From an uncultured Anaerolineae bacterium (GTDB taxonomy: Bacteria; Chloroflexota; Anaerolineae; VGOG01), in the NCBI GenBank assembly GCA_964625745.1, contig CAZVCJ010000005.1, positions 6,514 through 67,100 of the forward strand: a stretch of 60,587 nt of DNA. The letters run 5' to 3'. The notes under the pieces were generated by a model. That model ran no database searches and was not told the origin of the DNA. It was given only the letters and a program-made list of their open reading frames with translations. The position numbers were made by a program, and so were the translations under genes. Below are positions 1,615 to 16,779 of this stretch, in pieces; the stretch's first letter is position 1, and every line of letters starts with the position of its first letter.

Positions 1615-1675
1615 CTAGTTGGTACATTTCTACCAATCACCAGCCTACCGATTACTTGATGGAGGTAATCTGACA

Positions 1676-2614: not shown

Positions 2615-2624
2615 CCGCTCAGCA

Positions 2625-2703
2625 GTTCCCCTGAGTTCCTCCGAGTTCCCTCTTGCCTCACAGGAACTCAGGGGAACTCGTAGGAACTCTGGCAACCCTT
2701 TTT
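2625..2703 (+). terminator. long perfect hairpin plus T-run after serA
   Basis: GTTCCCCTGAGTTCCT (2625-2640) pairs perfectly with AGGAACTCAGGGGAAC (2662-2677); CCCTTTTTCTG follows. Confidence 0.6.
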
Positions 2704-2751
2704 CTGAACCAAACGTAGTCTGCTTTTTCATAACTCAACGGGGAGGAGAGA

Positions 2752-3639
2752 ATGAGCAGTAAGAGCTGCGAACCAGAGCCAGAATTGAAGATCGTGCCCG
2801 TCAAAGACATCATCATCCACGAACACTTTGACAAGACCAGATCCCCTAAGCTGGCCAAAATGATCGAGAAAGCCGGGGTCTTGCAGGATCCTCCCATCGT
2901 GGCCAGGCTGGGAGGGGGAAAATACGTCCACCTGGATGGCGCCAACAGGATCACCGTATTCCGAGAAGAGAATCTGCTCAACTGCCAGCACATCCTGGTA
3001 CAAATAGTGGACTACTTCGATCCAGAGAGCGTAAAAGTGAGCAGTTGGTGCCACTTGACTCAGCAGGACAAAGGCCCTTTCCTGTCCCGACTTAAGGACA
3101 GGAGCATCGAGCCTCTACCAATGGACTGCGATGCTGCGAGAGCTCTGGTATCGGAAGGAGAGGGAGTCTTGTGCTGCCTCTTCTTCCGGGATGGAGATGT
3201 CTTCGGGGTGAAGGGCGGAAGCGATTTTGAGTCACGGGTCAAGCTAATGAACGAGGTGGTCAGGACTTATGAGGGAAGGATAGAACGCGATCATCTTGAG
3301 CCTGAAGAGGGTGATTGGAAAAGGCAAATCAATGGTCTATTTGAAAAGCACGATGATTGCAACCTGATCGTCGCTTTCCCCAGGTTTACTCCAGAACAGG
3401 TTGTGCAGATAGCTACCAATCTTGCCGTTGGTAAGAACGGAGAAAATGCAGTCAAAATGCCCCCTGGAGTAACGAGACACATCGTGTTAGAGGGTAGAGC
3501 TTTGAGGATCAACTTCCCGCTGTCGGTGCTGAAGGCAGAAGGGATGTCGTTGGAGGAGAAGAACGAGGTGCTGAAAGAGTTTCTCAGAAAGAAGAAGCCC
3601 CGGCGTTACGAAGAACCGACGTTCATGTACGACGAATAG
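2752..3639 (+). CDS. ParB/Srx-fold protein, candidate SbnI/SerK-type free L-serine kinase
   Basis: N-terminus IVPVKDIIIHEHFD...PPIV...KYVHLDGANR follows the ParB/sulfiredoxin N-domain pattern. C-terminal PPGVTRH...LRINFPLSVLK...RRYEEPTFMYDE resembles what I recall of SbnI. RBS GGGGAGGAG. Visibly AT-richer than the neighbouring genes. Confidence 0.5.
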   Translation: MSSKSCEPEPELKIVPVKDIIIHEHFDKTRSPKLAKMIEKAGVLQDPPIVARLGGGKYVHLDGANRITVFREENLLNCQHILVQIVDYFDPESVKVSSWCHLTQQDKGPFLSRLKDRSIEPLPMDCDAARALVSEGEGVLCCLFFRDGDVFGVKGGSDFESRVKLMNEVVRTYEGRIERDHLEPEEGDWKRQINGLFEKHDDCNLIVAFPRFTPEQVVQIATNLAVGKNGENAVKMPPGVTRHIVLEGRALRINFPLSVLKAEGMSLEEKNEVLKEFLRKKKPRRYEEPTFMYDE

Positions 3640-3743: not shown

Positions 3744-6700
3744 ATGCCGATCACGCCCGAGATCATCCGTAGTCACCTGGCCGAGCTTCCCCGCCGTCGC
3801 TCCCTCGACGCCGCCCTGGAGCTCTTCGACGCCCTGGGCTACGGGTACGCCGACGAGCTGCCCCTCCCCACCCGCGACTGGCCTGCGGGCGTGCAAAGCC
3901 TGGTGAGCCAAAACGCCGAGTCCCCCATCTACCTGGCCCAGCACCGCGACTTCCACGTGGTCTACACCCACCTCACCACCGATGACCTGTTCCGTACTGT
4001 TGAACGGCCCATCGTGGAGCACACCCTGCACAAGCTGCATCCCTACGCCCTGTTCGTCTTCGCCAACCGCGACCTGACGCTGTGGGATTTCGTCAACGTG
4101 AAGTACGCGGCCGAGGACGGCGCCCGCCCCTTCGACCAGGCTCAGGGCAGGCGCCGCACCATCCGCCGCATCCACGTGGGGCCGACGGAGCGGCTGCACA
4201 CCGCCGCCCAGCGCGTGGCCCTGCTGGCCGTGCCCGCTCCCGACACCAGCGCCCTCGAACTGCAAAGCCGCCACGACCAGGCTTTCGACGTCGAAGAGGT
4301 CACCAGGCAGTTCTACCGCGACTACGTGGGGGTATTCGACGCGCTGTGCAAGGACATCGCCCGGCGCAATCCCCACTGCCCGGCCGAGATCGAGGCCCAG
4401 CAACTCCTCGACCGCCTGCTGTTCCTCTACTTCATCCAGAAGAAAGGCTGGCTCGACGGCCAACTCGACTATCTCTACCAGCACTTCCAGGCCCACTACC
4501 GGGCCGATCCAGACGGCACCAGCTTCTACGGCGATTTCCTCTTCCCCCTGTTCGTGGCCCTGTCCAACGAGGGCGCGGCCTTCCCCAGCCTGGGCGACGT
4601 CCCCTTCCTCAACGGCGGCCTGTTCGAGGTATCTGCTGACACGCCCCTGGCCGATCAACTCGTCGTGGGCAACGCGGTCTTCCATTCCGTATTCGATGAC
4701 CTGCTGGAGCGCTACAACTTCACCGTGCGTGAGGACACCCCGCTGGACGTGGAGGTGGCCATTGATCCGGAGATGCTGGGCCAGATCTTCGAGAACCTGG
4801 TGTTGGGTCTGGAGCGGGGCGAAGACCGCCGCAAGGCCACCGGCTCCTACTACACCCCCCGCGTCATCGTCCACTTCATGTGCCGCCAGGCCCTCAAAGA
4901 ATGTCTGGCCGCCGAGAGCGGCCTCGATCCCGCCCGCCTGGAAGCGCTGATGGACGTCGGCCCGGCCGAGCAGTTGACGCCAGAAGAGGTGGCTGAGCTG
5001 GGCGAGACGATCACCGAGCCGCAAGCTCGCCTGTTGCGCGGGTTGGTGGAGGGAGCGCGGGTGCTCGATCCCGCCGTGGGGTCGGGCGCTTTCCTGGTGG
5101 GGATGCTCTACCAGATGGTGGCCCTGACCAGGCTGCTGGACGTGCGGCTGCACGGTCAGAAGCGGGTGCAGCGTCGCAACTACGACTACGACCTCAAGCG
5201 GGGCTTCATCGAGCGCAACCTGTACGGGGTGGACATCCAGTCCGAGGCAGTGCGCATCTGCGAGCTGCGGCTGTGGCTCAGCCTGATGGTGGACTACGAG
5301 CGGCGGGCTGGCGAAGCAGTGCCCACCCTGCCCAACCTGAGCTACCGCGTGCGGGTGGGCGACAGCCTGATCGAGCGGCTGTTTGGCGAGCCGGTGCAAC
5401 TGGACGAGCTGGCTGACGACGCCGTGGCCCGCCAACTGATTGACCGCATCCAGACCGAGAAGCGAGGCTATTTCCAAGAGCCCAACCTGTGGGAGAAACA
5501 GCGGCGCGAGCTGCGCATCCTGGGGCTACTGTGCGAGCTGGCGGCCAAACTGGTGGGAGCCAAGCGAGGCGCCGTGCTGACCCAGATGTCGGCGCAGGTG
5601 CCCTCAATGGGTGACGAGTTTTTGTCCAGGGAGCATCGCAAACTGAAAGAAGCGTTTGAGGCGGAGCTGACCCGCTACGCCGGTCTGATGGAACAGGTGA
5701 AGGGAGTGTACGACCAGGTGCGGGCCATGCAGAATGGCGAAGTGGGGGACGTGGGCGCCCTCCGCGCCCAACTGGGGCTGTCCTTCTTATGGCGGCTGGA
5801 CTTTGCCGAGGTCTTCGCCGACAAGGGTGGGTTTGACGTGGTGATCGCCAATCCGCCGTACATCCGCCAGGAGCGGTTCTCTGACCAGAAGCCGCTGCTC
5901 AAAGCAGCCTTCACCGACGTGTACCACGGCGTGGCCGACCTGTACGTCTACTTCTATCGCCGGGGATTGGCCCTGGCCCGGCCAAAGGGTGTGCTGACCT
6001 TCATCAGCTCCAACAAGTTCTTCCGCGCCGGTTACGGTCAGGGGTTGCGCGCCTACCTGCGGGACAACACCTGGTTGAAGACCGTGATTGACTTTGGCGA
6101 CCTGCCCATCTTTGAGGCCACCACTTACCCCTGCGTGCTGGTAACTGCCAATCGTCGTCCTGGCGATGGCGAGGCGGCGGCGCAAGCGCTGAACGTGCGC
6201 AGCATGGCCACGTTGGAATACCTGGCCGACGCCGTGCAGCGCGAGGGTTGGCCCCAGCCGCAGCGAAGCCTGCGTCGTGACGGGTGGGCCTTTGAGCGGC
6301 CCGAAGTGTTGACCCTGTTGGAGAAGTTGCGCCGCAGCGGGACGCCGCTGGGGGAGTACATAGGTGGGCGGTTCTATCGGGGCATTGTAACCGGGCTGAA
6401 CGAAGCTTTTGTCATTGACCAAGCCACCCGGGACCGGCTCATGGCCGAGGATCCCCACAGTGCAGCGATCATCAAACCCTGGTTGCAAGGACGGGACATC
6501 AAACGATGGCGGGTGAATTGGCCACAGTTGTATTTGCTGTACGTAGGGTGGGATTGCAAGATCAAACGTTACCCTGCCGCCTTGGCACACCTCAAACGAT
6601 TCAAAAAGGCGTTAGCGAAAAGGCCAGAGGTCAAAGATGGACGCTTCCCTTGGTACGCCCTCAGTCGTTATGCTTCCCAGTACTACCTGGAGTTTGATAA

Positions 6701-7109
6701 ACCGAAGATAGTATGGCCTAATCTGTGTATTGAACCTCGCTTTGCTTTGGATCTTGAAAAGTGTTATGTGAGTGCCCCTGCCAATATTCTGCCTATCGCA
6801 CCGGATGAGTTATTCCTGGTAGGCATCCTGAATTCATCAGCGGTGTCTTGGTTTATGAAGCAAATCGCGGCTGAGCGAGCAGGTGGCTTTATCGAGTACA
6901 AACCCATCTACGTAACTCAGATACCCATCCCGGATACTACCCCAATCCAACGCGCCGCCATCGAAGCCCTGGTGCGCAAGCTGCTGGATGCGGAGGGCCA
7001 GGGGCCACAGGTGGCGGAGTGGGAGCGGGAGTTGAATGGGCTGGTGTATGAGTTGTATGGGTTGACGGAGGGGGACGTTGGGATGGTGGAGGGTTTGGAC
7101 CACGAATGA
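3744..7109 (+). CDS. large type IIG / PglX-like N6-adenine DNA methyltransferase with C-terminal TaqI-like specificity region
   Basis: Motifs GSYYTP, DPAVGSGAFLV (AdoMet motif I), VIANPPY (motif IV) and GIVTGLNEAFVI (TRD). Tail EWERELNGLVYELYGLTEGDV is typical of this family. ATG 3744 with AAGGAG RBS preferred over the track start 3669. I could not recognise a PD-(D/E)xK motif in the N-terminus. Confidence 0.85.
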   Translation: MPITPEIIRSHLAELPRRRSLDAALELFDALGYGYADELPLPTRDWPAGVQSLVSQNAESPIYLAQHRDFHVVYTHLTTDDLFRTVERPIVEHTLHKLHPYALFVFANRDLTLWDFVNVKYAAEDGARPFDQAQGRRRTIRRIHVGPTERLHTAAQRVALLAVPAPDTSALELQSRHDQAFDVEEVTRQFYRDYVGVFDALCKDIARRNPHCPAEIEAQQLLDRLLFLYFIQKKGWLDGQLDYLYQHFQAHYRADPDGTSFYGDFLFPLFVALSNEGAAFPSLGDVPFLNGGLFEVSADTPLADQLVVGNAVFHSVFDDLLERYNFTVREDTPLDVEVAIDPEMLGQIFENLVLGLERGEDRRKATGSYYTPRVIVHFMCRQALKECLAAESGLDPARLEALMDVGPAEQLTPEEVAELGETITEPQARLLRGLVEGARVLDPAVGSGAFLVGMLYQMVALTRLLDVRLHGQKRVQRRNYDYDLKRGFIERNLYGVDIQSEAVRICELRLWLSLMVDYERRAGEAVPTLPNLSYRVRVGDSLIERLFGEPVQLDELADDAVARQLIDRIQTEKRGYFQEPNLWEKQRRELRILGLLCELAAKLVGAKRGAVLTQMSAQVPSMGDEFLSREHRKLKEAFEAELTRYAGLMEQVKGVYDQVRAMQNGEVGDVGALRAQLGLSFLWRLDFAEVFADKGGFDVVIANPPYIRQERFSDQKPLLKAAFTDVYHGVADLYVYFYRRGLALARPKGVLTFISSNKFFRAGYGQGLRAYLRDNTWLKTVIDFGDLPIFEATTYPCVLVTANRRPGDGEAAAQALNVRSMATLEYLADAVQREGWPQPQRSLRRDGWAFERPEVLTLLEKLRRSGTPLGEYIGGRFYRGIVTGLNEAFVIDQATRDRLMAEDPHSAAIIKPWLQGRDIKRWRVNWPQLYLLYVGWDCKIKRYPAALAHLKRFKKALAKRPEVKDGRFPWYALSRYASQYYLEFDKPKIVWPNLCIEPRFALDLEKCYVSAPANILPIAPDELFLVGILNSSAVSWFMKQIAAERAGGFIEYKPIYVTQIPIPDTTPIQRAAIEALVRKLLDAEGQGPQVAEWERELNGLVYELYGLTEGDVGMVEGLDHE

Positions 7110-7272
7110 CACGAAAGGGGGCGAAAGGCACGAAAGGGCTTCGTGCTTTTCGTGGCTTTTCGCTTGTTTCGTGATCCAAAGCACCGACGCGGAGATTGAC
7201 GCGCTGGTGTATGAGTTGTATGCGTTGACGGAGGAGGAAGTGAACGTGGTGGAGGGAGTGAGGACCTCGTAG
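7040..7272 (+). repeat. tail-hairpin-tail module, copy 1 (methyltransferase 3' end, about 80-nt imperfect palindrome, second tail)
   Basis: Contains ...LVYELYGLTEGDVGMVEGLDHE*, then the palindrome 7097-7176 built from CACGAAAGG words and their complements, then a second tail AEIDALVYELYALTEEEVNVVEG. Core 7086-7238 is repeated at 9335-9490 and 10827-10985. Confidence 0.85.
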
Positions 7273-7403
7273 CCAAGGCGGACTCACTGCTAGCGCCCCT
7301 TGAGCAGGGAGACAAGTCAGAAGCCAAGCGCTTGGAAGCGGAAGTTGATCCTATGGTGCAGGCGCTATATGGAGGTAAGCAAGCCGAGTGAAAGGAGAAG
7401 CCC

Positions 7404-8360
7404 GTGTCTGAAGAGATTCACTGCGAAGTGCTTAGGATTACATGGCCCGACTGGTCGTCAGTTTCCGATGAATCGAAAGAGAACATCTGGCAAGTACTGA
7501 GCCAGCGGGTTGAGGATGGAGAAGCCCCCAGCCGCAGAGGCTTCGTGGGGGCAACCAGGTTTGAGGACATCATTGCTGGATTTTTCGCTCACGAGGGTCG
7601 CCGCTTGGGAGTTCAATATGATGAGGATTGGAACAAAGAAGATAGGGAAGCTGCAGAGTTTGAGCATCTATTCTTCGCTTTGGTTCTCAGTCAAGGACAA
7701 GTTATACTGCAGCGCAAGCGGATCGGCCGCGAGTTCGTCACGATCAATATGCGGACGATGCGACGCGAATTTTTCAATTTGCTTGGAGTGGTGTTCCAGC
7801 GTGCTGGCTTTCCCAGTGATCGCATCGTCAGGCAACCATTTCACGAGGAACGCCAAAAGGATTACCTCATCCAGATCTTCAACACTTATCCATCTACATT
7901 GATTAGAGTAAGTAACTTGTTGGGTCGGAAGGTGCCTGAAGATGTAAGACTATTCAATCCAGATATTGATAAGGATTTGATACTCAAGCAAGTGCTTAAC
8001 GGTGATTACCAGCATGTGGACGAGCTTGAAGCGAAGGCTGGGGAAACGGAGGACAGCGACCTACGGAACGCGACGTCGATTAGAGCTGCAATGCTCGCCG
8101 GAGACCCTAGAGAAGTACGAGCTATTGTAGAAGCGCAAGAGAGAACGTTCAGGAAGACCCAGCATGAACGGTTTACCATGCAGCTTGACACCGAAACGGG
8201 CGAGCAAGTCAAGGAGGCAGACCTGGACCGGGTGGTCAGAATCATACGAACAGAGTATTTCATTCCAGAGCACTTAGTGCGGTCACAGGTCAGTCTGGGT
8301 CCGTTGTTTGACTGGGCAAAAGAGAAGGATGATGCCAGCGATGACAGACAAAGTGGATGA
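7404..8360 (+). CDS. hypothetical cytosolic protein (318 aa), no recognisable domain
   Basis: GTG start preceded by AAAGGAG. AT-richer than surroundings. Its 3' end overlaps the start of the next ORF. Confidence 0.6.
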   Translation: MSEEIHCEVLRITWPDWSSVSDESKENIWQVLSQRVEDGEAPSRRGFVGATRFEDIIAGFFAHEGRRLGVQYDEDWNKEDREAAEFEHLFFALVLSQGQVILQRKRIGREFVTINMRTMRREFFNLLGVVFQRAGFPSDRIVRQPFHEERQKDYLIQIFNTYPSTLIRVSNLLGRKVPEDVRLFNPDIDKDLILKQVLNGDYQHVDELEAKAGETEDSDLRNATSIRAAMLAGDPREVRAIVEAQERTFRKTQHERFTMQLDTETGEQVKEADLDRVVRIIRTEYFIPEHLVRSQVSLGPLFDWAKEKDDASDDRQSG

Positions 8361-9300
8361 AATCAGCAAGAAACTTGTAGCGGGGCAGCCACTCGGCGAT
8401 GAAACGGATATTTCGCTCGAAGAGTTTATTGCTCTGTACCAGAAGATTGGTCAACAAGCAAACACGAAACAACGGGTTGATATCGTTCTTCTGAATGATC
8501 GCGCCTTTGTTCAATTCACAGATCTGCCACCAGGTAATGGTATAGTGTACATCAAATCAGAACGTCGCCTGACCCGTCAAGATTTCTCCCGGACGGTCGC
8601 TAATCCAGTATTTCACGGTGATGTCCTCGCCAGCACGATCAAAGAACAGATCAAGGAAGATCGCAGCAACATTTTGCTCTCTGGGGCTATTGGCCTACTC
8701 TTCACCGCTCTGCTTTTTTCACTGGGTAACTCGGTCGCTCCTAATTACCCGGCCTATTTGATCACCCCTAATAGCTTCCCAGCTACGGAACGAGCCATCA
8801 ACATGATAGTGAAGGTCAACGAGATGCTGCTGACGAGTGCAACTCTATTCCTAAGTGTTTTCCTGGTCTTCACAGTAGCTCAAAGCGCCAAGCTACAAGA
8901 GGACATTCGGCTATTCGACACCGGCCTGCTCCACAAGTTTGAGCACGACGATCGATTGGTCACTGTCATTGCCATTGTTAGTCTGATTTTGAGCGTACTG
9001 AATGTCACGCTGCTTGGCTTGCCAGTGTCCTTGGATGTCACTGCGTGGAATATGCTCGGATACACAGTCACACTTAACAAGCTTTCGCTGATAAGCCCTC
9101 TGATAACTGGTCTCACAATTGGAGCCCTGATCTACTGTTTTCTTGTCCTGTTGTATTATCTCAAGAGGATGATGCTTATCACCAATCGTGACATGAGTGC
9201 GAAAGTCTTGGAGAGAGCTCGGAGCCACCATCTCCACCATCAAGGAACTCTGCCAGCAAGTCGGGACGACGGATCAGCAGATCAAAGTGCTGGTGTATAA
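8329..9300 (+). CDS. hypothetical membrane protein: ~120-aa soluble N-domain plus four predicted TM helices
   Basis: Hydrophobic stretches ILLSGAIGLLFTALLFSLG, LLTSATLFLSVFLVFTVA, LVTVIAIVSLILSVLNVTLLGL and LISPLITGLTIGALIYCFLVLLYYL. Start ambiguous (8308 TTG, 8329/8332/8341 ATG). The last ~30 codons are read out of frame through a methyltransferase-tail remnant. Confidence 0.6.
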   Translation: MMPAMTDKVDEISKKLVAGQPLGDETDISLEEFIALYQKIGQQANTKQRVDIVLLNDRAFVQFTDLPPGNGIVYIKSERRLTRQDFSRTVANPVFHGDVLASTIKEQIKEDRSNILLSGAIGLLFTALLFSLGNSVAPNYPAYLITPNSFPATERAINMIVKVNEMLLTSATLFLSVFLVFTVAQSAKLQEDIRLFDTGLLHKFEHDDRLVTVIAIVSLILSVLNVTLLGLPVSLDVTAWNMLGYTVTLNKLSLISPLITGLTIGALIYCFLVLLYYLKRMMLITNRDMSAKVLERARSHHLHHQGTLPASRDDGSADQSAGV

Positions 9301-9515
9301 GATGTATGGGTTGACAGAGGAGGAGATTGGAGTGGTGGAGGGTTTGGACCACGAATGACACGAAAGGAGGCGAAAGGCGCGAAAGCGTTTCGTGCTTTTC
9401 GTGTTTTTTCGCTTGTTTCGTGATCCAAAGCACCGACGCGCGGAGATGGACGCGCTGGTGTATGAGTCGTATGGGTTGACTGAAGAAGAGATTGCTATTG
9501 TGAAGGGAGGGAGGA
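9255..9515 (+). repeat. tail-hairpin-tail module, copy 2
   Basis: Reads TDQQIKVLVYKMYGLTEEEIGVVEGLDHE*, then the palindrome, then AEMDALVYESYGLTEEEIAIVKGGRNE. The last tail supplies the GGGAGGGAGGA RBS and ATG of the next gene. Confidence 0.85.
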
Positions 9516-10682
9516 ATGAGTACCATTGACCTAGAAACTCTTTTGAATCTGGTCGGCACACTGGACGACAGCGACGACCCTAACAGCGCCCGCGCCCGCT
9601 TTCGGGCCTACCTGCAGGAAAGTACCCACAGCGTCGGCGACCTGCGGGCCTATGTGGACGCCGCTCTCTCCTCCAGCGGTGAGCAATACAACAAGGCACT
9701 GCAAGACCTAATCAATCACGCCGGTTACCTGCTGGGCTTTGAAGTGGAGTTCGGTCGCTATCGTGGCGTGCCGGGGCAAATTGGCTTCGATGGCCTGTGG
9801 CGTTCGCCCACCGGCCAGGCGCTAGTTGTGGAAGCTAAAACCACTGACGTGTACACCGTCAAGACGGCCACTCTTCTGGGTTACGTCAACGACCTGGTGT
9901 CTGCGGGCCAACTCGAGAGACCTGGTCAAGCCATCGGGCTTTACATCTACGGTCGGTTTGATGCTGCCACGAGCCAACTGGAGAAGGCCATCATCGCCGA
10001 GGGGCGTCAGGAACAACTGCGTGTGGCCAGCGTGGATGCGCTGTTGAACCTGCTAGAACTCAAGCAGGAATACGAATTGGAGCACGAGACAGTCTTTCAA
10101 CTCCTGCTCCCGTCTCCTGTCCGGGTGGATACCATTATCAATCTGATCTTCGACATCACCTCTCAGGAGCGACGAGCGGCGGTCGAAGAAGCGCCGGCTC
10201 TCGTACAGCCTGAACAGCCCACTGCAGAAAAGCAGATCAACTATTATCTGCTGCCAGCGGCTGATTCCGAGGATGGAATGCCCGTGTTGGAAAACCTGCA
10301 TCACTGGCTGGACCGAGGCATGTGGGGGTTGGGACAGCGCACCGGCTATCGTAAGTCTTTCCGCTCTGGCGACAGGCTGTGCTTCTACGCCGTACGCATC
10401 GGCGTCGTGGTCGAATGCACGGTCACTTCCCCTGCATTCGACCTGGACCGTAAGAAAAGCCCCAAGCCCCACCTGGAGGTGCCTTACGGCATCCGGCTGA
10501 AGGACGTGCGCTGGTTCGAGGACACCCCGATAGCTCTGACACCGGAGGTACGGGCCGAACTCAGCGCTTTCGAGGGACGTGACCTCAACAAGGGGTGGGC
10601 TTGGTTTGTGCAGGGCACAAGCAAGTTAACGGCAGAAGACTTTGAGCTTTTGACGGGGCTGAGGAAGCCTGGGCAGGGATAG
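9516..10682 (+). CDS. PD-(D/E)xK (Mrr-like) nuclease domain fused to a C-terminal EVE/PUA-like domain; candidate modification-dependent (type IV) restriction enzyme
   Basis: N-half carries FDGLW...ALVVEAKTT (D...ExK). C-half YYLLPA...WGLGQRTGYRKSFRSGDRLCFYAV...GVVVECTV follows the EVE/PUA-like pattern. Confidence 0.6.
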   Translation: MSTIDLETLLNLVGTLDDSDDPNSARARFRAYLQESTHSVGDLRAYVDAALSSSGEQYNKALQDLINHAGYLLGFEVEFGRYRGVPGQIGFDGLWRSPTGQALVVEAKTTDVYTVKTATLLGYVNDLVSAGQLERPGQAIGLYIYGRFDAATSQLEKAIIAEGRQEQLRVASVDALLNLLELKQEYELEHETVFQLLLPSPVRVDTIINLIFDITSQERRAAVEEAPALVQPEQPTAEKQINYYLLPAADSEDGMPVLENLHHWLDRGMWGLGQRTGYRKSFRSGDRLCFYAVRIGVVVECTVTSPAFDLDRKKSPKPHLEVPYGIRLKDVRWFEDTPIALTPEVRAELSAFEGRDLNKGWAWFVQGTSKLTAEDFELLTGLRKPGQG

Positions 10683-10699
10683 CGAGTCACAGAACGGGG

Positions 10700-10765
10700 A
10701 ATGATCACACTGAAAGGGTTTCAGTGGTCTCAGGGGTTTCAGTGAAGTCAGTGGTTCAGCGGACG
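10700..10765. repeat. REP-like word cluster (CACTGAAA/TTTCAGTG, CAGTGGTCTCAG)
   Basis: cacactgaaagggtttcagtggtctcaggggtttcagtgaagtcagtggttcagcgg; a related copy is at 11767-11812. Confidence 0.6.
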
Positions 10766-10767
10766 TG

Positions 10768-10988
10768 CGGAGATTGACGCGCTGGTGCATGAGTTGTATG
10801 GGCTGACGGAGGAGGAGATTGGGACGGTGGAGGGTTTGAACCACGAATGACACGAAAGGAGGCGAAAGGCGCGAAAGGGTTTCGTGCTTTTCGTGGCTTT
10901 TCGCTTGCTTCGTGATCCAAAGCACCGACGCGCGGAGATTGACGCGCTGGTGTATGAGTTGTATGGGTTGATGGGGGAGGAGACTTGA
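10768..10988 (+). repeat. tail-hairpin-tail module, copy 3
   Basis: Reads AEIDALVHELYGLTEEEIGTVEGLNHE*, then the palindrome, then AEIDALVYELYGLMGEET*. Confidence 0.85.
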
Positions 10989-11003
10989 AGTGGGAGGGAG
11001 CCC

Positions 11004-11432
11004 CTAATCTATCTGATCAGGGAACTCTTTGGCAAAGAAGTCGCGAACGGTGAGGATGGGGATGCCTGCGTACCCGCCTAGGTCCAGGAGGTGATGGTCG
11101 CCAGACACAACGCAGACGGCACCAGCGACGGTGGCACAGCGGAGGAAAACGTCATCGTCTGGGTCGGCTACCACGATGGGATCTCCTTCTGGCACCTCAA
11201 AGACAGAAGCCAGGTTCAGAGCATAAGCGACCAGTTCCTCGGAGGCCAGTCCGAGTTGCTCCAGACGAGGTTGGAGTCGTTCGTAGGACAGCACTTCAGC
11301 CAGCTCGACGAGCATAGAAGGGGCTATGCACAACTCGACTTCACCCGCTTCGGCCAGACACAGCAATTTCCAGGGCATCCCCCGCCATAGCAAACCGGAA
11401 ACCCAGACGTTGGTGTCAATCACGATGCGCAC
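11004..11432 (-). CDS. PIN-domain toxin (TIGR00305-like)
   Basis: N-terminus RIVIDTNVWVSGLL; 142 aa; GTG start 4 nt after the antitoxin stop. Confidence 0.8.
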   Translation of the reverse strand: MRIVIDTNVWVSGLLWRGMPWKLLCLAEAGEVELCIAPSMLVELAEVLSYERLQPRLEQLGLASEELVAYALNLASVFEVPEGDPIVVADPDDDVFLRCATVAGAVCVVSGDHHLLDLGGYAGIPILTVRDFFAKEFPDQID

Positions 11433-11435
11433 GGC

Positions 11436-11678
11436 TTACCTCGCTCGTCGCTGACGTCGAACCTCGTGGACGATCTCGTTGATCTCTTCCAGGGACAAAG
11501 GTTCCTCTTCTGGAGCGTGAGCCACGATACTCGTCACTGGAGGTGGCGTGACGCGCTTGAGGTGCACAGTGTCCCCTTCCACCCAGACGACGAAGCGATC
11601 TGAGGGACGAAAACGAGCGGCGACCTCTGCGGGCAGCTTCAGGGTGTGCCGTGAGGTTAGTTCGGCTATCTCGACCAT
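11436..11678 (-). CDS. AbrB/SpoVT-type antitoxin (80 aa)
   Basis: MVEIAELTSRHTLKLPAEVAARFRPSDRFVVWVEGDTVHLKRV is a swapped-hairpin AbrB-like pattern. ATG at 11678 with GAGGAGG RBS. The longer track ORF (to 11987) runs through repeats and is rejected. Confidence 0.7.
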   Translation of the reverse strand: MVEIAELTSRHTLKLPAEVAARFRPSDRFVVWVEGDTVHLKRVTPPPVTSIVAHAPEEEPLSLEEINEIVHEVRRQRRAR

Positions 11679-11924
11679 CTTGGCCTCCTCATTCGGTAAG
11701 TAGACTGCTTTGGATAGTATACTATATCCACTACACGATGTCAATCTTGTGCTGGAGTGGGAAGGGGCCTCAGTGGTCTCAGAGGCTTCAGCGGGGTCAG
11801 TGGTTAAGGGGACGAGGCAACGGATGGGAGCGGATACCAGGGAGGACGCAAGTGACTTCCAGGAAAATAATCCCCCAAAAACACCGATGATTATTGCTGC
11901 CTGGGCTCTGGATCTTCGCCGACC

Positions 11925-12060
11925 GCACGGGCATGAAGTGCCCGTGCTACAGAACAGCGCCCGATAAATCGGGCTCTTCGCCGCCAAATACCCAGAAAAC
12001 CATCGTTCAAGGGTGATTTATCACCCGCTACTCCGTAGCCCGACGACTTCATCGTCGGGC
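11925..12060. repeat. cluster of four perfect short hairpins (REP/BIME-like) with CTAC/GTAG flanks
   Basis: GCACGGGCatgaagtGCCCGTGC (11925-11947), GCCCGATaaATCGGGC (11959-11974), GGGTGATttATCACCC (12011-12026) followed by gCTAC, and GTAG + CCCGACGActtcaTCGTCGGG (12034-12060). Confidence 0.7.
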
Positions 12061-12267
12061 GGGTCGTGGCAACCTTGGGAGGTTTCGAATTCTGGAATTC
12101 CCTAACCCCATACACAGCTTCTAACAATTGGGCAAGAAATAAAGACGGGATTGATGGTACTCCACCAACTGCATCACCAATAGCACCCAAGGCGCCATAG
12201 ACACAGGGGAAAACCCTCCCGTCAACGACTGCTATTATAGCACATTTCCTTCCGAAAGGAAAACCAA

Positions 12268-15200
12268 ATGCCCCACGACATCATAGACAACCGCACGCGG
12301 GAGCTGGCTCCCGAAATCAACAACTTCCTGGCCGATAGCATCCGCGCCCACTTCGCCGTCGGCTATTTCTTCCTGTCGGGCTTTCAGGCCATCGCCGAGC
12401 ACATCCCCCACCTGGATCAACTGCGCCTGCTCATTGGCAACGTCACCAATCGCCAGACTATCGAGCAACTGGCCGAGGGCACCCACCACCTGGCGACCCT
12501 GCAACGGGCGGTGCGCCGCGAACGGATGGCCTCCGCCCAGGCTCCTCTCATCCGCGCTGAGACCGCCGACTCCATCCAGACCACCCTGGAGCTTCTGGAC
12601 CAGACCGACGACGCCCAGGCCCTGGTGCTCTCCCTGGCCGACCTCATCGCCCAGGGCAAGGTGCAGGTGAAGGTCTACACCCGCGGCCGCCTGCACGCCA
12701 AAGCCTACCTGTTCGACTTCGACCCGGCCCGCATCCGCGCCCAGACCGGCGCGGCCATCGTGGGCAGCTCCAACCTGTCGCTGGGCGGCGTCAGCCACAA
12801 CACGGAGCTCAACGTCCGCGTGTTCGGCGACGGCAACCACGCCGAGCTCTCCCGCTGGTTCAACGAGCTGTGGGACGAAGCCGAGGACTTCGACGCGGAC
12901 CTGATCCGCGAGCTGCGCCGCTCCTGGGCCGCCAGCCAGGTGCCCACCCCGGCAGGCCTCCGCCCTGTCAGCCCCCACGACGTCTACCTCAAGACCCTCT
13001 ACACCCTGGTCAAGGACCGGCTGGAGGGCCGCCGCGACACGGAGCTCCTGTGGGAAGCGGAGATGCCGGAGCTGGCCGACTTTCAGCGGGTGGCCGTCCG
13101 CCAGGCCGTCAAGATCCTGGATACCTACCACGGCGTCTTCGTGGCCGATGTGGTGGGCCTGGGCAAGACCTACATCGGCACCACCCTGCTCAAGCACTAC
13201 GCCCTCTATCGCGGCGCCCGCCCGCTGGTGGTCTGCCCTGCCTCGCTGGTGGAGATGTGGGAGTGGTTCATGGAACGCTACCAGATTGACGCCCCCGTCA
13301 TCTCCATGGGCCTCCTCAGCCAGAAGGGCCACGAGCGGATGCTGGCCGACAACTGGCGCTACCGTGACCGCGATCTGGTGCTGGTAGACGAGTCCCAGAA
13401 CTTTCGCTACGGTGATACCCAGCGCTACGCCGCCCTGCAATTGTTCACCCAGACCCGGCCCACCATCCTGCTGACCGCCACGCCCCGCGCCACCACCGCC
13501 TGGGACATCTACCACCAGATCAAGCTCTGGCATCCCCAGGATACCACCAGCATCCCCATTAACCCGCCCAACCTGCCGGAGTTCTTCCGCAAGGTGGAGC
13601 CGCGCAACGAGGAGCCGCCCAGCCGTGACCTGCAGGAGATCCTCAACCACGTCCTCATCCGCCGTACCCGCCACCACATCCGCACCTACTACCCCGACGC
13701 CCAGATCAACGGCCAGCCCCTGGTCTTCCCCGACCGCGAGTTGGAGACCATCACCTACAGCATCGAGGACACCTACCGTGCCCCGGGCGACACGGCGGGG
13801 GAGAGCCGCGTCTACCAGCGCCTGCACGACCTGATGGGCCAGCTCACCTACGCCCGCTATGCCCTGTTCGACTACGTTCTGCCCGAACACCAGCACGAGC
13901 CTAATTACGGGGAACTTCAACGAGCGGGCGCTGCCCTGCGCGGTCTGATGCGGGTCATGCTCTTCAAGCGTTTCGAGTCCAGCGTCCACGCCTTCCGCCA
14001 GACCGTCAACCGCCTGCGAAACCTGCAGCGCGCTTTCCAGGGCGCGCTGGACCGCGACCTGGTGCCCGCTGGCGACGAGGCCACTGACATCCTCTACAAG
14101 TCCGACCTGGACGACGAAGCCACTCTGTACCAGGCCCTGGAGAAAGCCAGCATCCGCTACCCCATCAGCGACTTCGACGTGCCCAAACTCCAGGGCGCCC
14201 TGGACACCGACATCGCTCTCCTGGACGAAATGGCCCGCCTGGTGGAGCCCATCGGCCCCCAGGAGGACAACAAACTCCAGCAGCTCATGGCCCTGATGGC
14301 CGGGAGCCGCACCCTGCCCGGCGATCGTTCGGCTGAGCGCTCACGACGAAGCCTGCTCCACGGCAAGGTACTCATCTTCACCCAGTACGCCGACACTGCC
14401 CACTACCTCTACGACAACCTGAGGCCCCTGGGCCGCATCCGCGCCGTGGAGAGCGGCACCACCGACCTGGCCCGCGTCATCCTGCGCTTCGCTCCCAAGG
14501 CCAACAACTATCAGCTCCAACCCGGCGACGAAGAGCTGCGCATCCTGGTCTCCACCGACGTCCTCAGCGAGGGCCTCAACCTGCAGGACGCCAACCACGT
14601 CATCAACTACGACCTGCACTGGAATCCCATCCGTCTCATCCAGCGCGTGGGCCGCGTGGACCGCATTGGCACCGAGCACGATACCATCTACGCCTACAAC
14701 TTCCTGCCTGAGACCGGCCTGGAGCGCGAGCTGGGCATCGAGCAGCGCCTGGAGCACCGCATCGCCGACATTCACCGCACCATCGGCGAGGATGCCCCTG
14801 TTCTACACAAGAGCGAGCAGATCAACGCCGAGGCCATGTACGCCATCTATCGGGGCGATCCCAGCGTTTTTGAAGACGAACCCGAGCCCGACATCTTCAA
14901 CCTGCTGGAGGCGGAAGAACTCATGCGCCAGCTCCAGCGCACCGACCCCGACCGCTTTCAGGAGATCGCCACCATGCCCGACGGCATCCGCAGCGCGCGT
15001 CAGGCGGTTGGCGAGCCTGGCCCTTCGGCGAGCTCAGGACAGGGCCTGTTCGTCTTCTGCCAGGCGGGCAGCTACCAGCGCCTCTACCTGGTTGACCAAG
15101 CGGGTCATCGCACCGCAGATCCTCAGCGGGCCATCCACGCCATCCGCTGCGAGGAAGACGAGCCTACCCTGGCGCTGCCTGCCGGCATCAACCAGCGCAT

Positions 15201-15576
15201 CGCCGCCGTCAAACGCGACTTCGACGCCGAGGTTCGCGCCCGTGAGGCCGAGATACGCCACAGAGTAGGCACAGCCCTGGGTCGCGACTACGCCCTGGCG
15301 GAGCTGCGCCTCATCTTCGATGCCGAAGAGGACCCGGAGGAAAAAGCTCGTCTAACCCTCCTGTCCGAGATTCTCACCACTGTCCCATTGACCGCCCGCG
15401 CCCATCGTGAGCTCAACAACCTGCGTCGCAGCAGGATCACCGGCCTGGCCTTGATCGAGCAACTCCTGCGCATCGTCCGTGACTACAACCTGGAGGAGGC
15501 CCACCATATCATCGCCGACCGGGCTGAGGAAGCACCGCTGATCCCACGTATTGTTTGTAGTGAGGCGCTGTTGTAG
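12268..15576 (+). CDS. PLD-family (single HKD) nuclease domain fused to an SNF2-family helicase
   Basis: N-domain RLHAKAYLF...IVGSSNLSLGG (HKD motif). Helicase motifs DVVGLGKT (I), LVLVDESQNFR (II), ILLTATP (III), LSEGLNLQ (V) and QRVGRVDRIG (VI). Confidence 0.85.
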   Translation: MPHDIIDNRTRELAPEINNFLADSIRAHFAVGYFFLSGFQAIAEHIPHLDQLRLLIGNVTNRQTIEQLAEGTHHLATLQRAVRRERMASAQAPLIRAETADSIQTTLELLDQTDDAQALVLSLADLIAQGKVQVKVYTRGRLHAKAYLFDFDPARIRAQTGAAIVGSSNLSLGGVSHNTELNVRVFGDGNHAELSRWFNELWDEAEDFDADLIRELRRSWAASQVPTPAGLRPVSPHDVYLKTLYTLVKDRLEGRRDTELLWEAEMPELADFQRVAVRQAVKILDTYHGVFVADVVGLGKTYIGTTLLKHYALYRGARPLVVCPASLVEMWEWFMERYQIDAPVISMGLLSQKGHERMLADNWRYRDRDLVLVDESQNFRYGDTQRYAALQLFTQTRPTILLTATPRATTAWDIYHQIKLWHPQDTTSIPINPPNLPEFFRKVEPRNEEPPSRDLQEILNHVLIRRTRHHIRTYYPDAQINGQPLVFPDRELETITYSIEDTYRAPGDTAGESRVYQRLHDLMGQLTYARYALFDYVLPEHQHEPNYGELQRAGAALRGLMRVMLFKRFESSVHAFRQTVNRLRNLQRAFQGALDRDLVPAGDEATDILYKSDLDDEATLYQALEKASIRYPISDFDVPKLQGALDTDIALLDEMARLVEPIGPQEDNKLQQLMALMAGSRTLPGDRSAERSRRSLLHGKVLIFTQYADTAHYLYDNLRPLGRIRAVESGTTDLARVILRFAPKANNYQLQPGDEELRILVSTDVLSEGLNLQDANHVINYDLHWNPIRLIQRVGRVDRIGTEHDTIYAYNFLPETGLERELGIEQRLEHRIADIHRTIGEDAPVLHKSEQINAEAMYAIYRGDPSVFEDEPEPDIFNLLEAEELMRQLQRTDPDRFQEIATMPDGIRSARQAVGEPGPSASSGQGLFVFCQAGSYQRLYLVDQAGHRTADPQRAIHAIRCEEDEPTLALPAGINQRIAAVKRDFDAEVRAREAEIRHRVGTALGRDYALAELRLIFDAEEDPEEKARLTLLSEILTTVPLTARAHRELNNLRRSRITGLALIEQLLRIVRDYNLEEAHHIIADRAEEAPLIPRIVCSEALL

Positions 15577-15615: not shown

Positions 15616-16779
15616 ATGAAACTCGCTATCAGAATGACCAGGCTAGGCACGGAGACGGCCTTTGAGGTGTTGATGAAAGCCAGGGCGCTGGAGGCCCAGG
15701 GCCGGGAGATCGTCCACCTGGAGATCGGCGAGCCCGACTTCGATACCCCTGCCAACATCGTCGAGGCGGCCATCAAAGCTCTGCGCCAGGGCCAGACGCA
15801 TTACACCCCGTCGGCTGGCATCCCCCAGCTCAGGGAGGCCATCGCCGAGGAGGTCTCCACCACCCGAGGCATCGAGGTCAATCCAGACCAGGTGGTGGTC
15901 ACGCCGGGCGGCAAGCCCATCATGTTCTTCACCATCCTGGCCCTGTGCGAGCAGGGCGACGAGGTCATCTACCCCAACCCAGGCTTCCCCATCTACGGAT
16001 CCATGATCAATTTCGTTGGCGCCACACCGGTGCCCGTCCCGCTTCTGATGGAAAAGGACTTCCGCTTCGACATCGAAGAGTTCAAGAGCCTGGTCTCCCC
16101 CCGAACCAAGATGATCATCCTCAACTCGCCTCATAATCCCACCGGCGGGGTGCTGACCCAGGAGGATCTGGAAGCCATCGCCGAGGCGGCCATGGAGAAC
16201 GACGCCGTGGTGCTTTCGGATGAGATCTACAGCCGCATGGTTTACGAGGGAGAGTTCGCCAGCATCACTCAATTCCCCGGCATGGAAGAGCGAACCATCA
16301 TTTTGGATGGCTTCTCCAAGACCTACGCCATGACGGGCTGGCGGATGGGCTACGGGGTGATGCCCCAGTGGCTGGCAACGCAGGTATCCAATCTGATGGT
16401 CAACTCCAACTCCTGCACCGCCGCCTTCAGTCAGTGGGCCGGCGTCGAGGCCCTCACAGGGCCGCAGGACGAGTCCCAGAAGATGATCGAGGCCTTCCGC
16501 CAGCGGCGGGACGTCATCGTGGACGGCCTCAACCAGATCCCTGGCTTCCGCTGCCTGAGGCCCAAAGGCGCTTTCTACGTCTTCCCCAACATCGAGGGCA
16601 CGGGCAAGAGTTCCCAGGAGATGGAGGATTTCCTGCTCAACGAAGCCGGCGTGGCCACTCTGGCCGGCACGTCCTTCGGCGAGTACGGCGAGGGCTTCCT
16701 CCGCTTCTCGTACGCCAACTCGGTGGAGAACATACAGAAAGCCCTGGGCAGGATCGGTGAGGCCATAGCCGGGCTGTAG
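15616..16779 (+). CDS. class I/II PLP aminotransferase (aspartate aminotransferase-like)
   Basis: HLEIGEPDFDTP, NSPHNPTG and SKTYAMTGWRMGY motifs; RBS GAGGAGG. Confidence 0.85.
   Translation: MKLAIRMTRLGTETAFEVLMKARALEAQGREIVHLEIGEPDFDTPANIVEAAIKALRQGQTHYTPSAGIPQLREAIAEEVSTTRGIEVNPDQVVVTPGGKPIMFFTILALCEQGDEVIYPNPGFPIYGSMINFVGATPVPVPLLMEKDFRFDIEEFKSLVSPRTKMIILNSPHNPTGGVLTQEDLEAIAEAAMENDAVVLSDEIYSRMVYEGEFASITQFPGMEERTIILDGFSKTYAMTGWRMGYGVMPQWLATQVSNLMVNSNSCTAAFSQWAGVEALTGPQDESQKMIEAFRQRRDVIVDGLNQIPGFRCLRPKGAFYVFPNIEGTGKSSQEMEDFLLNEAGVATLAGTSFGEYGEGFLRFSYANSVENIQKALGRIGEAIAGL

What the first reader, a model, noticed from the sequence alone, without database searches (positions are those of the whole stretch)
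3744..15576. Nuclease-less type IIG/PglX-like methyltransferase and a PLD-SNF2 fusion as the only large enzymes: a DISARM-like pair without DrmA/DrmB
The 1121-aa methyltransferase has all gamma-class N6A motifs and a TaqI-like TRD, but I see no PD-(D/E)xK motif in its N-terminus. About 5 kb downstream on the same strand is a 1102-aa protein joining a single-HKD PLD nuclease domain to a complete SNF2 helicase. In class 1 DISARM these activities are separate genes (DrmMI, DrmD, DrmC) and require DrmA plus the DUF1998 protein DrmB. Neither is present here, and BREX core genes (PglZ, BrxC, BrxL) are also absent. The two genes may form a minimal methylation-guarded helicase-nuclease restriction system that later acquired inserted cargo.
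Basis: partly seen in the sequence, partly recalled or inferred. Interest (0 to 1): 0.7.

Follow-up and report, generated by a model that had tools for sequence, protein, structure and literature searches.

The report
Two-gene methylase plus helicase-nuclease defence
A large DNA methylase with no detectable cutting domain and a helicase fused to a nuclease form a conserved two-gene restriction-like pair found across many bacterial and some archaeal lineages, and the gap between them collects other defence genes.

Summary
Gene 3744-7109 encodes a 1121-aa gamma-class N6-adenine methyltransferase (Eco57I plus TaqI_C domains). Gene 12268-15576 encodes a 1102-aa protein with one HKD/PLD motif and a complete SNF2 ATPase. 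The rest of the 60-kb window is housekeeping, with no DrmA/DrmB, DUF499, PglZ or BrxC.

- No nuclease was found in the methylase N-terminus by motif, Pfam, PDB sequence search or Foldseek on a pLDDT-91 model.
- Helicase homologues are strongly linked to this methylase family. In 46 of 56 loci with at least 5 kb upstream, it lies upstream on the same strand. In 11 of 50 pairs the genes abut; elsewhere 0.5-7 kb of variable toxin-antitoxin and defence cargo sits between them.

New here: the methylase's 165-aa N-terminal domain co-varies with the helicase (r=0.79). The rest of the methylase does not (r=0.2-0.3). That makes it a candidate coupling domain.

The pair is not DISARM. Its closest characterised relative is MANTIS/Gao_RL, whose AAA+ loader and DUF3780 partner are absent. 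The pairing was noted in passing in 2018 and 2023. I found no paper that names or tests it.

It is a new variant of a known kind. Function is inferred, not shown.

The parts
3744..7109 (+). Methyltransferase/specificity subunit, 1121 aa, of type IIG/IIL-like build but with no detectable nuclease.
   Evidence: Pfam Eco57I, TaqI_C and N6_Mtase. PADLOC REase_MTase_IIG 6e-111. The C-terminal half aligns to CamA and BseCI. Motifs X, I and IV are present.
3744..4238 (+). N-terminal domain of the methylase (aa 1-165). Fold unknown; proposed module for coupling to the helicase.
   Evidence: AF2 pLDDT 90.9. No PDB fold match. No Pfam match. 276 cluster representatives match at E<=0.001, and the domain starts within ~70 residues of the N-terminus in nearly all of the 150 best hits. 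Its pairwise identity tracks helicase identity with r=0.79.
4239..4763 (+). Helical spacer (aa 166-340), MmeI-like.
   Evidence: Pfam MmeI_hel, E=0.02. The PfLNGGLF motif aligns to MmeI PYINGKLF. All-helical in the AF2 model.
6234..7109 (+). Target-recognition region (aa 831-1121) with a hypervariable core at aa 900-1050.
   Evidence: TaqI_C covers aa 937-1087. Identity to close relatives is 26-62% here, against mostly 72-94% elsewhere.
7030..7257 (+). Junction repeat 1: methylase tail, ~100-nt hairpin, then a second tail copy. The hairpin supplies the last codons and the stop codon of the methylase.
7404..8360 (+). Cargo gene, 318 aa, function unknown.
   Evidence: No family match. A rare family of 13 proteins. 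Present in L001 and L004, absent in L089. Also found next to HSP70/UvrD-type genes in L109.
8308..9300 (+). Cargo gene, about 320-330 aa, multi-pass membrane protein and partner of the 318-aa gene. Its start is uncertain (8308-8353).
   Evidence: Hydrophobic segments. Co-occurs with the 318-aa gene in L001, L004 and L109.
9279..9506 (+). Junction repeat 2 (tail-hairpin-tail).
   Evidence: RNA fold -56 kcal/mol, z=-6.
9516..10682 (+). Cargo gene, 388 aa, function unknown.
   Evidence: No significant family or PDB match. No homologue in related loci.
10771..10998 (+). Junction repeat 3 (tail-hairpin-tail).
11004..11432 (-). PIN-domain toxin (cargo).
   Evidence: NCBIfam TIGR00305, 4e-17, above its cut-off. 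An 82%-identical copy sits next to the helicase in L006.
11436..11678 (-). Probable antitoxin, 80 aa, overlapping-operon partner of the PIN gene. A near-consensus promoter lies at 11744-11716.
   Evidence: Start mapped. The promoter-like site matches 11 of 12 positions. No family hit, so the assignment rests on position and size.
12268..15576 (+). Restriction subunit: HKD/PLD nuclease (aa 1-230), SNF2 ATPase (aa 231-850) and a C-terminal region of unknown function (aa 851-1102).
   Evidence: Pfam. PADLOC 'HKD+Snf2' 6e-66 and DrmD 1e-39. Invariant catalytic residues.

Best explanation
The two large genes are the two subunits of a self-sufficient, ATP-dependent restriction-modification-like defence module.

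Proposed mechanism:
- The methylase is built like a type IIG/IIL enzyme: helical spacer, gamma-class catalytic domain and TaqI-like recognition domain. It reads a short, probably asymmetric, DNA site and marks host DNA with m6A.
- Where such enzymes normally carry a PD-(D/E)xK nuclease, it has a 165-aa domain. That domain stays matched to the partner helicase while the rest of the methylase is freely exchanged. I infer that this domain recruits or licenses the partner.
- The partner is an SNF2 translocase with one HKD half-site, so two copies must come together to form a nuclease active site.
- Cleavage of unmethylated DNA therefore probably needs two motor proteins converging from two unmodified sites, as in type III/ISP enzymes and as proposed for MANTIS MtsD.
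- The space between the two genes is a slot where toxin-antitoxin and defence cassettes accumulate. In this window it holds a 318-aa/membrane-protein pair, a 388-aa gene and a PIN toxin-antitoxin pair.

Shown here: domain content, intact catalytic motifs, conserved synteny, absence of other partners, co-variation, hypervariable recognition region, variable cargo.

Inferred: methylation motif, physical contact between the subunits, DNA cleavage, site-orientation dependence.
For: 1. Synteny.
- The helicase family is large: 5535 proteins at E<=1e-20 and at least 593 matches among species-representative genomes.
- In 46 of 56 loci with at least 5 kb upstream (37 of 45 with at least 9 kb), a homologous methylase lies upstream on the same strand.
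- The loci come from Chloroflexota, Cyanobacteria, Acidobacteriota, Verrucomicrobiota, Poribacteria, Syntrophales, Bacteroidota and a Methanophagales archaeon.
- The genes abut or overlap in 11 of 50 pairs.
- More distant pairs (helicase 30-41% identical) occur in a metagenome contig, a Halorussus plasmid and Synechocystis pSYSX. Their methylases align from near the N-terminus.

2. No third conserved gene in 82 loci. No DUF499, DUF1998, PglZ or BrxC in the window.

3. Co-variation over 41 pairs.
- Identity of the N-domain tracks identity of the helicase: r=0.79, with 0 of 2000 permutations as high.
- For pairs with helicase identity below 70%, r=0.68. The partial correlation controlling for the methylase core is 0.77.
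- Spacer, core and recognition region give r=0.29, 0.23 and 0.20, about 0 for distant pairs. The partial correlation of the core controlling for the N-domain is 0.00.
- The N-domain is encoded at the end of the methylase gene farthest from the helicase.

4. RM-like signatures. The recognition region is hypervariable among close relatives, while the helicase is mostly 75-95% identical along its length. The HKD, Walker A, DExx and motif VI residues are invariant.

5. No nuclease was detected in the methylase.

6. Precedent. The MANTIS effector MtsD is a dimeric PLD-SF2 protein forming one active site, and it depends on a methylase for targeting (bioRxiv 10.64898/2026.09.23.753747).

7. Cargo. 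The 105 gap ORFs include PIN (7), AbiL/OLD/Gabija-like ATPases (5), Uma2 (4), DUF3800 (3), HEPN/NTase, TIR_2, RloB and GmrSD_N.
Against: - There are no experimental data for this family. I found none in the paper library.
- In this window, hairpins with terminator-like cores and a reverse-strand toxin-antitoxin pair lie between the two genes. The genes are therefore unlikely to be co-transcribed.
- Ten of 56 helicase loci show no methylase within 10 kb.
- The co-variation could arise if the N-domain and helicase are simply the stable anchors of a locus whose middle is replaced by recombination, without physical contact.
- A cryptic nuclease in the N-domain cannot be ruled out. Some PD-(D/E)xK enzymes recruit the acidic residue from elsewhere in the chain.
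- The window's own N-domain departs from the family consensus at two conserved positions (S107A, H115D).
Confidence: 0.68

Rival explanations
1. The two genes are independent neighbours in a defence island. The methylase is a self-contained type IIG enzyme with a cryptic or novel nuclease in its N-domain. The PLD-SNF2 protein is a separate stand-alone defence enzyme, for example a SauUSI-like modification-dependent nuclease.
For: PADLOC's type IIG models match at 6e-111. Stand-alone relatives such as Cj0031 restrict phage on their own (PMC4889913). The helicase has a 250-aa C-terminal region of unknown function that could read DNA. Ten of 56 helicase loci lack a nearby methylase.
Against: Same-strand synteny holds across many phyla, with overlapping stop and start codons in several loci. 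The N-domain co-varies with the helicase specifically. No nuclease fold or motif was detected. A modification-dependent nuclease paired with a methylase would risk attacking the host's own DNA.
Confidence: 0.12
2. The pair is a fragment of a larger known system (class 1 DISARM, MANTIS/BR type 2 or BREX). The missing partners are encoded elsewhere in the genome or have been lost, leaving an inactive remnant.
For: The domains overlap with DrmMI/DrmD/DrmC and with MtsC/MtsD. In MANTIS the methylase cannot bind DNA without its AAA+ loader.
Against: No partner gene is found in 60 kb here. None is conserved in 82 related loci. Both ORFs are intact with invariant catalytic residues. The methylase carries its own TaqI-like recognition domain. 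NCBIfam scores are far below the DrmD cut-off (156 against 610) and the MtsD-type cut-off (129 against 1100).
Confidence: 0.08
3. The pair has a non-defence role: an epigenetic methylase working with an SNF2 remodeller or repair enzyme of the RapA type.
For: The best PDB sequence matches of the helicase are to RapA (1.5e-10). Phase-variable relatives of the methylase alter gene expression (PMC4889913).
Against: The RapA match covers only motif V-VI (aa 753-816). The HKD nuclease motif is invariant. Distribution is patchy and island-like, here between housekeeping genes with deviating G+C. The recognition region is hypervariable. The gap is filled with defence and toxin-antitoxin cargo.
Confidence: 0.05

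Closest known systems
MANTIS / Gao_RL / DUF499-centred BREX-related type 2 (MtsA-D)
   Same: An N6-adenine methylase provides specificity and self-marking. The effector is a protein with an N-terminal single-HKD PLD nuclease fused to an SF2/SNF2-type ATPase, which acts as a dimer with one active site.
   Different: MANTIS needs the DUF499 AAA+ loader MtsA and the small protein MtsB to load and activate its methylase. Neither is present here or in related loci. The methylase here is a 1100-aa type IIG/IIL-like protein with its own recognition domain and a family-specific N-domain. The helicase scores only 129 bits against a cut-off of 1100 on the NCBIfam model for the anti-phage PLD protein.
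Class 1 DISARM (DrmA, DrmB, DrmC, DrmD, DrmMI)
   Same: It has the same three activities: an N6A methylase of type IIG kind, an SNF2 helicase and a PLD nuclease. PADLOC hits are DrmD 1e-39 and DrmMI 3e-31.
   Different: The core DrmA helicase and the DUF1998 protein DrmB are absent. PLD is fused to the SNF2 protein rather than being a separate DrmC. The NCBIfam DrmD score is 156 against a cut-off of 610.
L. lactis pLd8 orf33/orf34 and the 'Cj0031-like methylase next to PLD+SNF CDS' loci
   Same: The same two-gene architecture has been described. It pairs a type IIG-annotated methylase with TaqI_C but no restriction domain with a PLD-SNF2 helicase, and the authors suggested that the helicase provides restriction (PMC6098607; PMC9881135).
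   Different: Those are annotations made in passing, with no survey or experiment. Gene order is reversed in pLd8. Sequence relatedness to the window's proteins was not measured here.
Type III (EcoP15I) and type ISP (LlaGI) restriction-modification
   Same: A methylase/specificity unit is coupled to an SF2 ATPase-nuclease. Hemimethylation of asymmetric sites is reconciled with self-protection by requiring two sites (established knowledge; the comparison is drawn in the MANTIS paper).
   Different: Type III uses a beta-class Mod and a Res subunit with a PD-(D/E)xK nuclease. Type ISP is a single polypeptide with an Mrr-like nuclease. Here the methylase is gamma-class Eco57I/MmeI-like and the nuclease is HKD.
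Type IIG/IIL enzymes (MmeI, Eco57I, BpuSI, Cj0031)
   Same: Helical spacer, gamma-class methylase and recognition domain in one chain. PADLOC type IIG models match at 6e-111. There is weak MmeI spacer similarity.
   Different: Those enzymes carry an N-terminal PD-(D/E)xK nuclease and act alone. Here that nuclease is not detectable and a partner helicase-nuclease is conserved.
SauUSI (type IV)
   Same: A PLD nuclease plus SF2 motor, dimeric and ATP-dependent (as described in the MANTIS paper).
   Different: SauUSI has its own recognition domain, targets modified DNA and has no methylase partner.

Membership tests
Class 1 DISARM | DrmA (YprA-like helicase) and DrmB (DUF1998/MZB protein) are present in the locus. 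| tested here: not met
   Pfam, PADLOC and NCBIfam scans of the island ORFs and of the window's largest ORFs found no MZB/DUF1998 and no second helicase. No such gene is conserved in 82 related loci.
Class 1 DISARM | DrmD SNF2 helicase, with DrmC PLD nuclease as a separate gene. | tested here: not met
   NCBIfam DISARM_DrmD scores 156 bits against a cut-off of 610. PLD is fused to the helicase N-terminus.
MANTIS / Gao_RL / BR type 2 | MtsA, a DUF499 AAA+ ATPase. | tested here: not met
   No DUF499 hit in any scanned ORF. No large third gene is conserved in related loci.
MANTIS / Gao_RL / BR type 2 | MtsB, a small DUF3780-type protein in the locus. | tested here: not met
   The island ORFs gave no such Pfam hit. 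It is not among the 25 most frequent Pfam families of the 105 gap ORFs. ORFs under 100 aa were not scanned.
MANTIS / Gao_RL / BR type 2 | MtsD-type effector: an N-terminal HKD nuclease fused to an SF2 ATPase. | tested here: inconclusive
   The architecture is met. Family membership is not: NF042964 scores 129 bits against a cut-off of 1100, and PADLOC PLD_Helicase gives only 1e-21 over the helicase C-lobe.
BREX | PglZ and BrxC are present, with BrxL or a helicase as well. | tested here: not met
   No hits. The PglX models of NCBIfam score 60-70 bits against cut-offs of 400-900.
Type IIG restriction-modification enzyme | Methylase and target-recognition domain in one polypeptide. | tested here: met
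   Eco57I, N6_Mtase and TaqI_C. PADLOC REase_MTase_IIG 6e-111.
Type IIG restriction-modification enzyme | An endonuclease domain, usually N-terminal PD-(D/E)xK, in the same polypeptide. | tested here: not met
   There is no motif before residue 466 and no Pfam nuclease family at E<=1. A PDB profile search gave no hit for aa 1-340. Foldseek against PDB gave best E-values of 0.2 and 0.027 on models of pLDDT 84 and 91. The family consensus has Asn where the ExK acid would be. A novel nuclease fold cannot be excluded.
Type III restriction-modification | A beta-class Mod methylase and a Res subunit with a C-terminal PD-(D/E)xK nuclease. | tested here: not met
   The motif order X-I-IV is gamma-class. 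The nuclease is an N-terminal HKD. The two-subunit logic is shared, the families are not.
Restriction-modification in the functional sense | Site-specific methylation that protects against cleavage by the cognate nuclease. | not testable with these tools
   This needs a methylome and restriction assays.

The most novel reading that the evidence does not exclude
The pair represents a widespread, so far unnamed class of ATP-dependent restriction-modification. A dedicated adaptor domain at the N-terminus of a type IIG/IIL-type methylase has replaced the enzyme's own nuclease, and it licenses a separate PLD-SNF2 motor nuclease. In addition, the operon works as a cassette platform. Short copies of the methylase's 3' coding end, here joined to a 100-nt hairpin, act as recombination sites. 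Through them, defence and toxin-antitoxin cassettes are inserted and swapped between the two anchor genes without a linked integrase.
Probability: 0.3. Interest if true: 0.8.

Novelty: new variant of a known kind. Interest (0 to 1): 0.6.

Why it matters
Several recently described methylation-based defences (BREX, DISARM, MANTIS, MADS) use many proteins, and how an unmodified site triggers the effector is still unclear. MtsD cleavage has not yet been reconstituted in vitro.

A natural two-protein version would be a simpler system for studying that step. It has a methylase that brings its own recognition domain and a candidate docking domain, together with a PLD-SNF2 motor nuclease.

The family is common in cyanobacteria, Chloroflexota and other environmental phyla. 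Annotation pipelines there currently split it into a 'type IIG enzyme' and a 'helicase-related protein'. Restriction-modification censuses may therefore misclassify it.

The cargo slot adds another example of defence genes nesting inside a defence operon.

Tried and rejected
- ParB/Srx-like gene at 2752-3639, directly upstream of the methylase. I considered it as a system component and rejected it. It resembles the serine kinases SerK/SbnI, follows SerC- and SerA-like genes, and has no homologue in any related locus.
- The 318-aa and 330-aa genes. I first took them for core components, because L001 and L004 conserve them at 72-76% identity. I rejected this. They are absent from L089, whose methylase and helicase are 77% and 84% identical. 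They are absent from all more distant loci. They also occur beside unrelated helicase genes in L109.
- PADLOC model 'C3a139 HKD+Snf2'. I traced it to a 2018 list of candidate type III CRISPR accessory genes (PMC6546367). It is not a defined system, and no cas genes are present here.
- Rfam search of the island: nothing relevant.
- Integron attC reading of the hairpin: not pursued. No integrase is nearby and I had no attC model.
- Census from the methylase side. The protein search lists only hits shorter than about 735 aa, so the six contexts fetched were mostly truncated remnants. One intact split methylase had the helicase adjacent. One hit was cut by a contig end. Four were truncated or split forms without a helicase. 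This sample is biased and I did not use it as evidence.
- tblastn of the N-domain alone against plasmids found nothing at 1e-5. The full-length methylase did align from near its N-terminus to the plasmid-borne partners.


Full report
**1. What is in the sequence**

The region 3744-15576 is a 12-kb island between housekeeping genes.
- Upstream lie a class-V aminotransferase (541-1614), a D-2-hydroxyacid dehydrogenase (1619-2614) and a ParB/Srx-fold protein resembling serine kinases (2752-3639).
- Downstream lie a class I/II aminotransferase (15616-16779) and MnmE.
- The remaining large ORFs scanned in the window encode SbcC, a Mur ligase, two H+-pyrophosphatases and NADH dehydrogenase subunits.
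- G+C is 0.64-0.65 over the two large genes, 0.51-0.52 at its lowest between them, and about 0.60 in the flanks.

The methylase (3744-7109, 1121 aa) has motifs X, I and IV in gamma order and the Pfam domains Eco57I, N6_Mtase and TaqI_C. The 3744 start is supported by relatives that align from residue 1.

The second large protein (12268-15576, 1102 aa) has one HKD motif, a GSSN motif, Walker A, DExx and motif VI. All are invariant in homologues down to 49% identity.

**2. Is there a nuclease in the methylase?**

I found none.
- No PD-(D/E)xK-like pattern occurs before residue 466.
- Pfam at E<=1 finds only a weak MmeI helical-spacer match for aa 218-294.
- A 60-sequence profile against all PDB sequences matches only the methylase core and, weakly, the MmeI spacer.
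- AlphaFold2 models of aa 1-420 (pLDDT 84) and aa 1-170 (pLDDT 90.9) have no Foldseek match in the PDB better than E=0.2 and 0.027, with TM-scores near 0.25.

The first 165 residues do form a conserved alpha/beta domain.
- Its family-wide motifs are E87-R88, F-S-(N/D)108, W-H-F-x-N118-V-K120 and R137...R141-R142.
- The order helix-Glu, strand-(N/D), strand-N-x-K recalls a PD-(D/E)xK core with the acids replaced. That reading is mine and Foldseek does not support it.
- The domain has 276 cluster representatives at E<=0.001. It starts within ~70 residues of the N-terminus in nearly all of the 150 best hits, and the full-length ones are 900-1430 aa.

**3. Are the two genes linked elsewhere?**

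Yes.
- The helicase family is large. A scan of one genome per species found at least 593 relatives, and 80 loci were fetched with 10-kb flanks.
- A homologue of the window's methylase lies upstream on the same strand in 46 of 56 loci with at least 5 kb upstream, and in 37 of 45 with at least 9 kb. These homologues include the N-terminal region.
- The loci come from many bacterial phyla and a Methanophagales archaeon.
- Clustering all ORFs of 82 loci shows that only these two genes are widely shared. The next family is present in 8 loci.
- The distance from methylase stop to helicase start is at most 153 nt in 11 of 50 pairs, five of them overlapping. It is 0.5-7 kb in the rest.
- More distant pairs, with helicases 30-41% identical, occur in a metagenome contig, on a Halorussus plasmid and on Synechocystis pSYSX. 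In pSYSX the order is reversed and a VapC toxin-antitoxin pair sits between them.

**4. The cargo**

Four close relatives share methylase (50-77% identity) and helicase (82-84%) but differ in what lies between.
- This window holds a 318-aa/membrane-protein pair, a 388-aa gene and a PIN toxin-antitoxin pair.
- L001 holds the same pair plus a GmrSD_N protein.
- L004 holds the pair plus DUF3800.
- L089 holds a GmrSD_N-Schlafen protein and no pair.
- The 318-aa family is rare. It also occurs with its partner next to HSP70/UvrD-type genes.
- Among 105 gap ORFs from all loci, the commonest families are PIN, AbiL/OLD/Gabija-like ATPases, Uma2, DUF3800, HEPN/nucleotidyltransferase, TIR and RloB.

**5. 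A new clue to mechanism**

Over 41 loci with both genes full-length, the helicase is much better conserved than the methylase (mean pairwise identity 59% against 37%).

I split the methylase into four regions and compared each with the helicase.
- The identity of the N-domain follows the identity of the helicase: r=0.79, with 0 of 2000 permutations as high.
- For pairs with helicase identity below 70%, r=0.68. The partial correlation controlling for the catalytic core is 0.77.
- Spacer, core and recognition region give r=0.29, 0.23 and 0.20. These fall to about 0 for distant pairs. The partial correlation of the core controlling for the N-domain is 0.00.
- L001 illustrates this. Its N-domain is 62-74% identical to the window's, but its catalytic core is only 4-58% identical.

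The N-domain is encoded at the end of the gene farthest from the helicase, so simple proximity does not explain the pattern. I infer that the N-domain is the part of the methylase that must match the helicase, most simply a docking or licensing domain.

The alternative is that both are just the stable anchors of a locus whose middle is replaced by recombination. I cannot exclude this.

The recognition region (aa 900-1050) is hypervariable among close relatives, as in specificity-switching restriction systems.

**6. Comparison with known systems**

- It is not DISARM. DrmA and DrmB are absent, PLD is fused rather than separate, and the DrmD model score is far below its cut-off.
- It is not BREX.
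- The closest characterised system is MANTIS (Gao_RL, BREX-related type 2). Its effector MtsD is a dimeric PLD-SF2 protein with one shared active site, directed by a methylase.
- MANTIS needs the AAA+ loader MtsA and the small protein MtsB, because its methylase cannot bind DNA alone. Neither is present here. The methylase here has its own TaqI-like recognition domain and the extra N-domain.
- In logic the pair resembles type III and ISP enzymes.
- The pairing has been noticed before. On L. lactis plasmid pLd8, the authors remarked that the type IIG methylase lacks a restriction domain, that the adjacent PLD-SNF2 protein probably supplies it, and that the domains recall class 1 DISARM (PMC6098607).
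- A 2023 survey of programmed inversions listed Cj0031-like methylases next to PLD+SNF genes (PMC9881135).
- In five further literature searches I found no paper that names, surveys or tests the pair. The library does not cover most subscription journals.

**7. Junction repeats (side finding)**

A 228-nt composite occurs three times: at the end of the methylase, after the membrane-protein gene and after the 388-aa gene.
- Each copy is a ~60-nt copy of the methylase's C-terminal coding end (…IDALVYELYGLTEEEI..VEG), then a ~100-nt hairpin, then another tail copy. The hairpin folds at -56 kcal/mol (z=-6).
- The hairpin supplies the methylase's last codons and its stop codon. Its core looks terminator-like.
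- The same unit occurs in 18 metagenome contigs, sometimes as tandem arrays of period 163-168 nt. It again separates defence-type cassettes downstream of methylases.
- L004 has tail copies without hairpins at the same junctions.
- L004, L009 and L067 carry short duplicated copies of the helicase 5' end inside the cargo.

These look like footprints of cassette insertion by recombination through the conserved gene ends. The mechanism is unexplained.

**8. Verdict**

The finding is real and its interpretation is supported by comparative evidence. It is a new variant of a known kind: an ATP-dependent, methylation-guarded restriction system with a PLD-SNF2 effector. It is widespread, previously noticed only in passing, and untested as far as I could find. 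Function is inferred, not shown.

Noticed in passing
window 7030-7257, 9279-9506, 10771-10998; also L086-L103: A composite 'tail-hairpin-tail' repeat marks every cassette junction. The tail is a ~60-nt copy of the methylase C-terminal coding end, and the hairpin is ~100 nt and very stable. The same unit is found in 18 metagenome contigs, in places as tandem arrays of period 163-168 nt, next to GmrSD-, OLD- and DUF5677-type genes. How it spreads is unknown.
   Followed up: partly
window 10712-10765 and 11761-11814: A 54-nt direct repeat (81% identical) brackets junction repeat 3 together with the reverse-strand PIN toxin-antitoxin pair, as if that block had been inserted as a unit.
   Followed up: no
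L004 8864-9046; L009 5505-5636; L067 7811-8008: Short duplicated copies of the first 43-66 codons of the helicase gene lie inside the cargo region. They mirror the duplicated methylase tails and suggest cargo exchange by recombination through the two anchor genes.
   Followed up: no
window 11004-11678 (-); L006 15-440; L108 (pSYSX) 12478-13111: A toxin-antitoxin pair, usually of PIN/VapC type, recurs directly beside the helicase gene or between helicase and methylase in distant loci. PIN is the commonest Pfam family among 105 gap ORFs.
   Followed up: partly
window 541-3639: SerC-like aminotransferase, SerA-like dehydrogenase and a ParB/Srx-fold protein resembling the serine kinases SerK/SbnI (1e-16, below the curated cut-off) form a probable serine-metabolism cluster. 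The third gene could be mistaken for a ParB-like defence component.
   Followed up: partly
window 7404-9300; L109 10001-11873: A rare two-gene cassette: a 318-aa soluble protein plus a ~320-aa multi-pass membrane protein, with only 13 relatives of the first in 5.8 billion protein clusters. It occurs both in this operon and beside HSP70/UvrD-type helicase genes. It may be an uncharacterised defence or abortive-infection pair.
   Followed up: partly
window 34284-36362 and 41847-43967 (both -): Two full-length H+-translocating pyrophosphatase paralogues lie 5.5 kb apart, separated by GAF and histidine-kinase/response-regulator genes.
   Followed up: no
L111 (JBALCY010000003.1 end) and L043 (NZ_JBALCY010000044.1 start): In one Nostoc assembly the methylase sits at the end of one contig and the helicase near the start of another. 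The pair is probably split by an assembly break, possibly caused by repeats in the gap.
   Followed up: no
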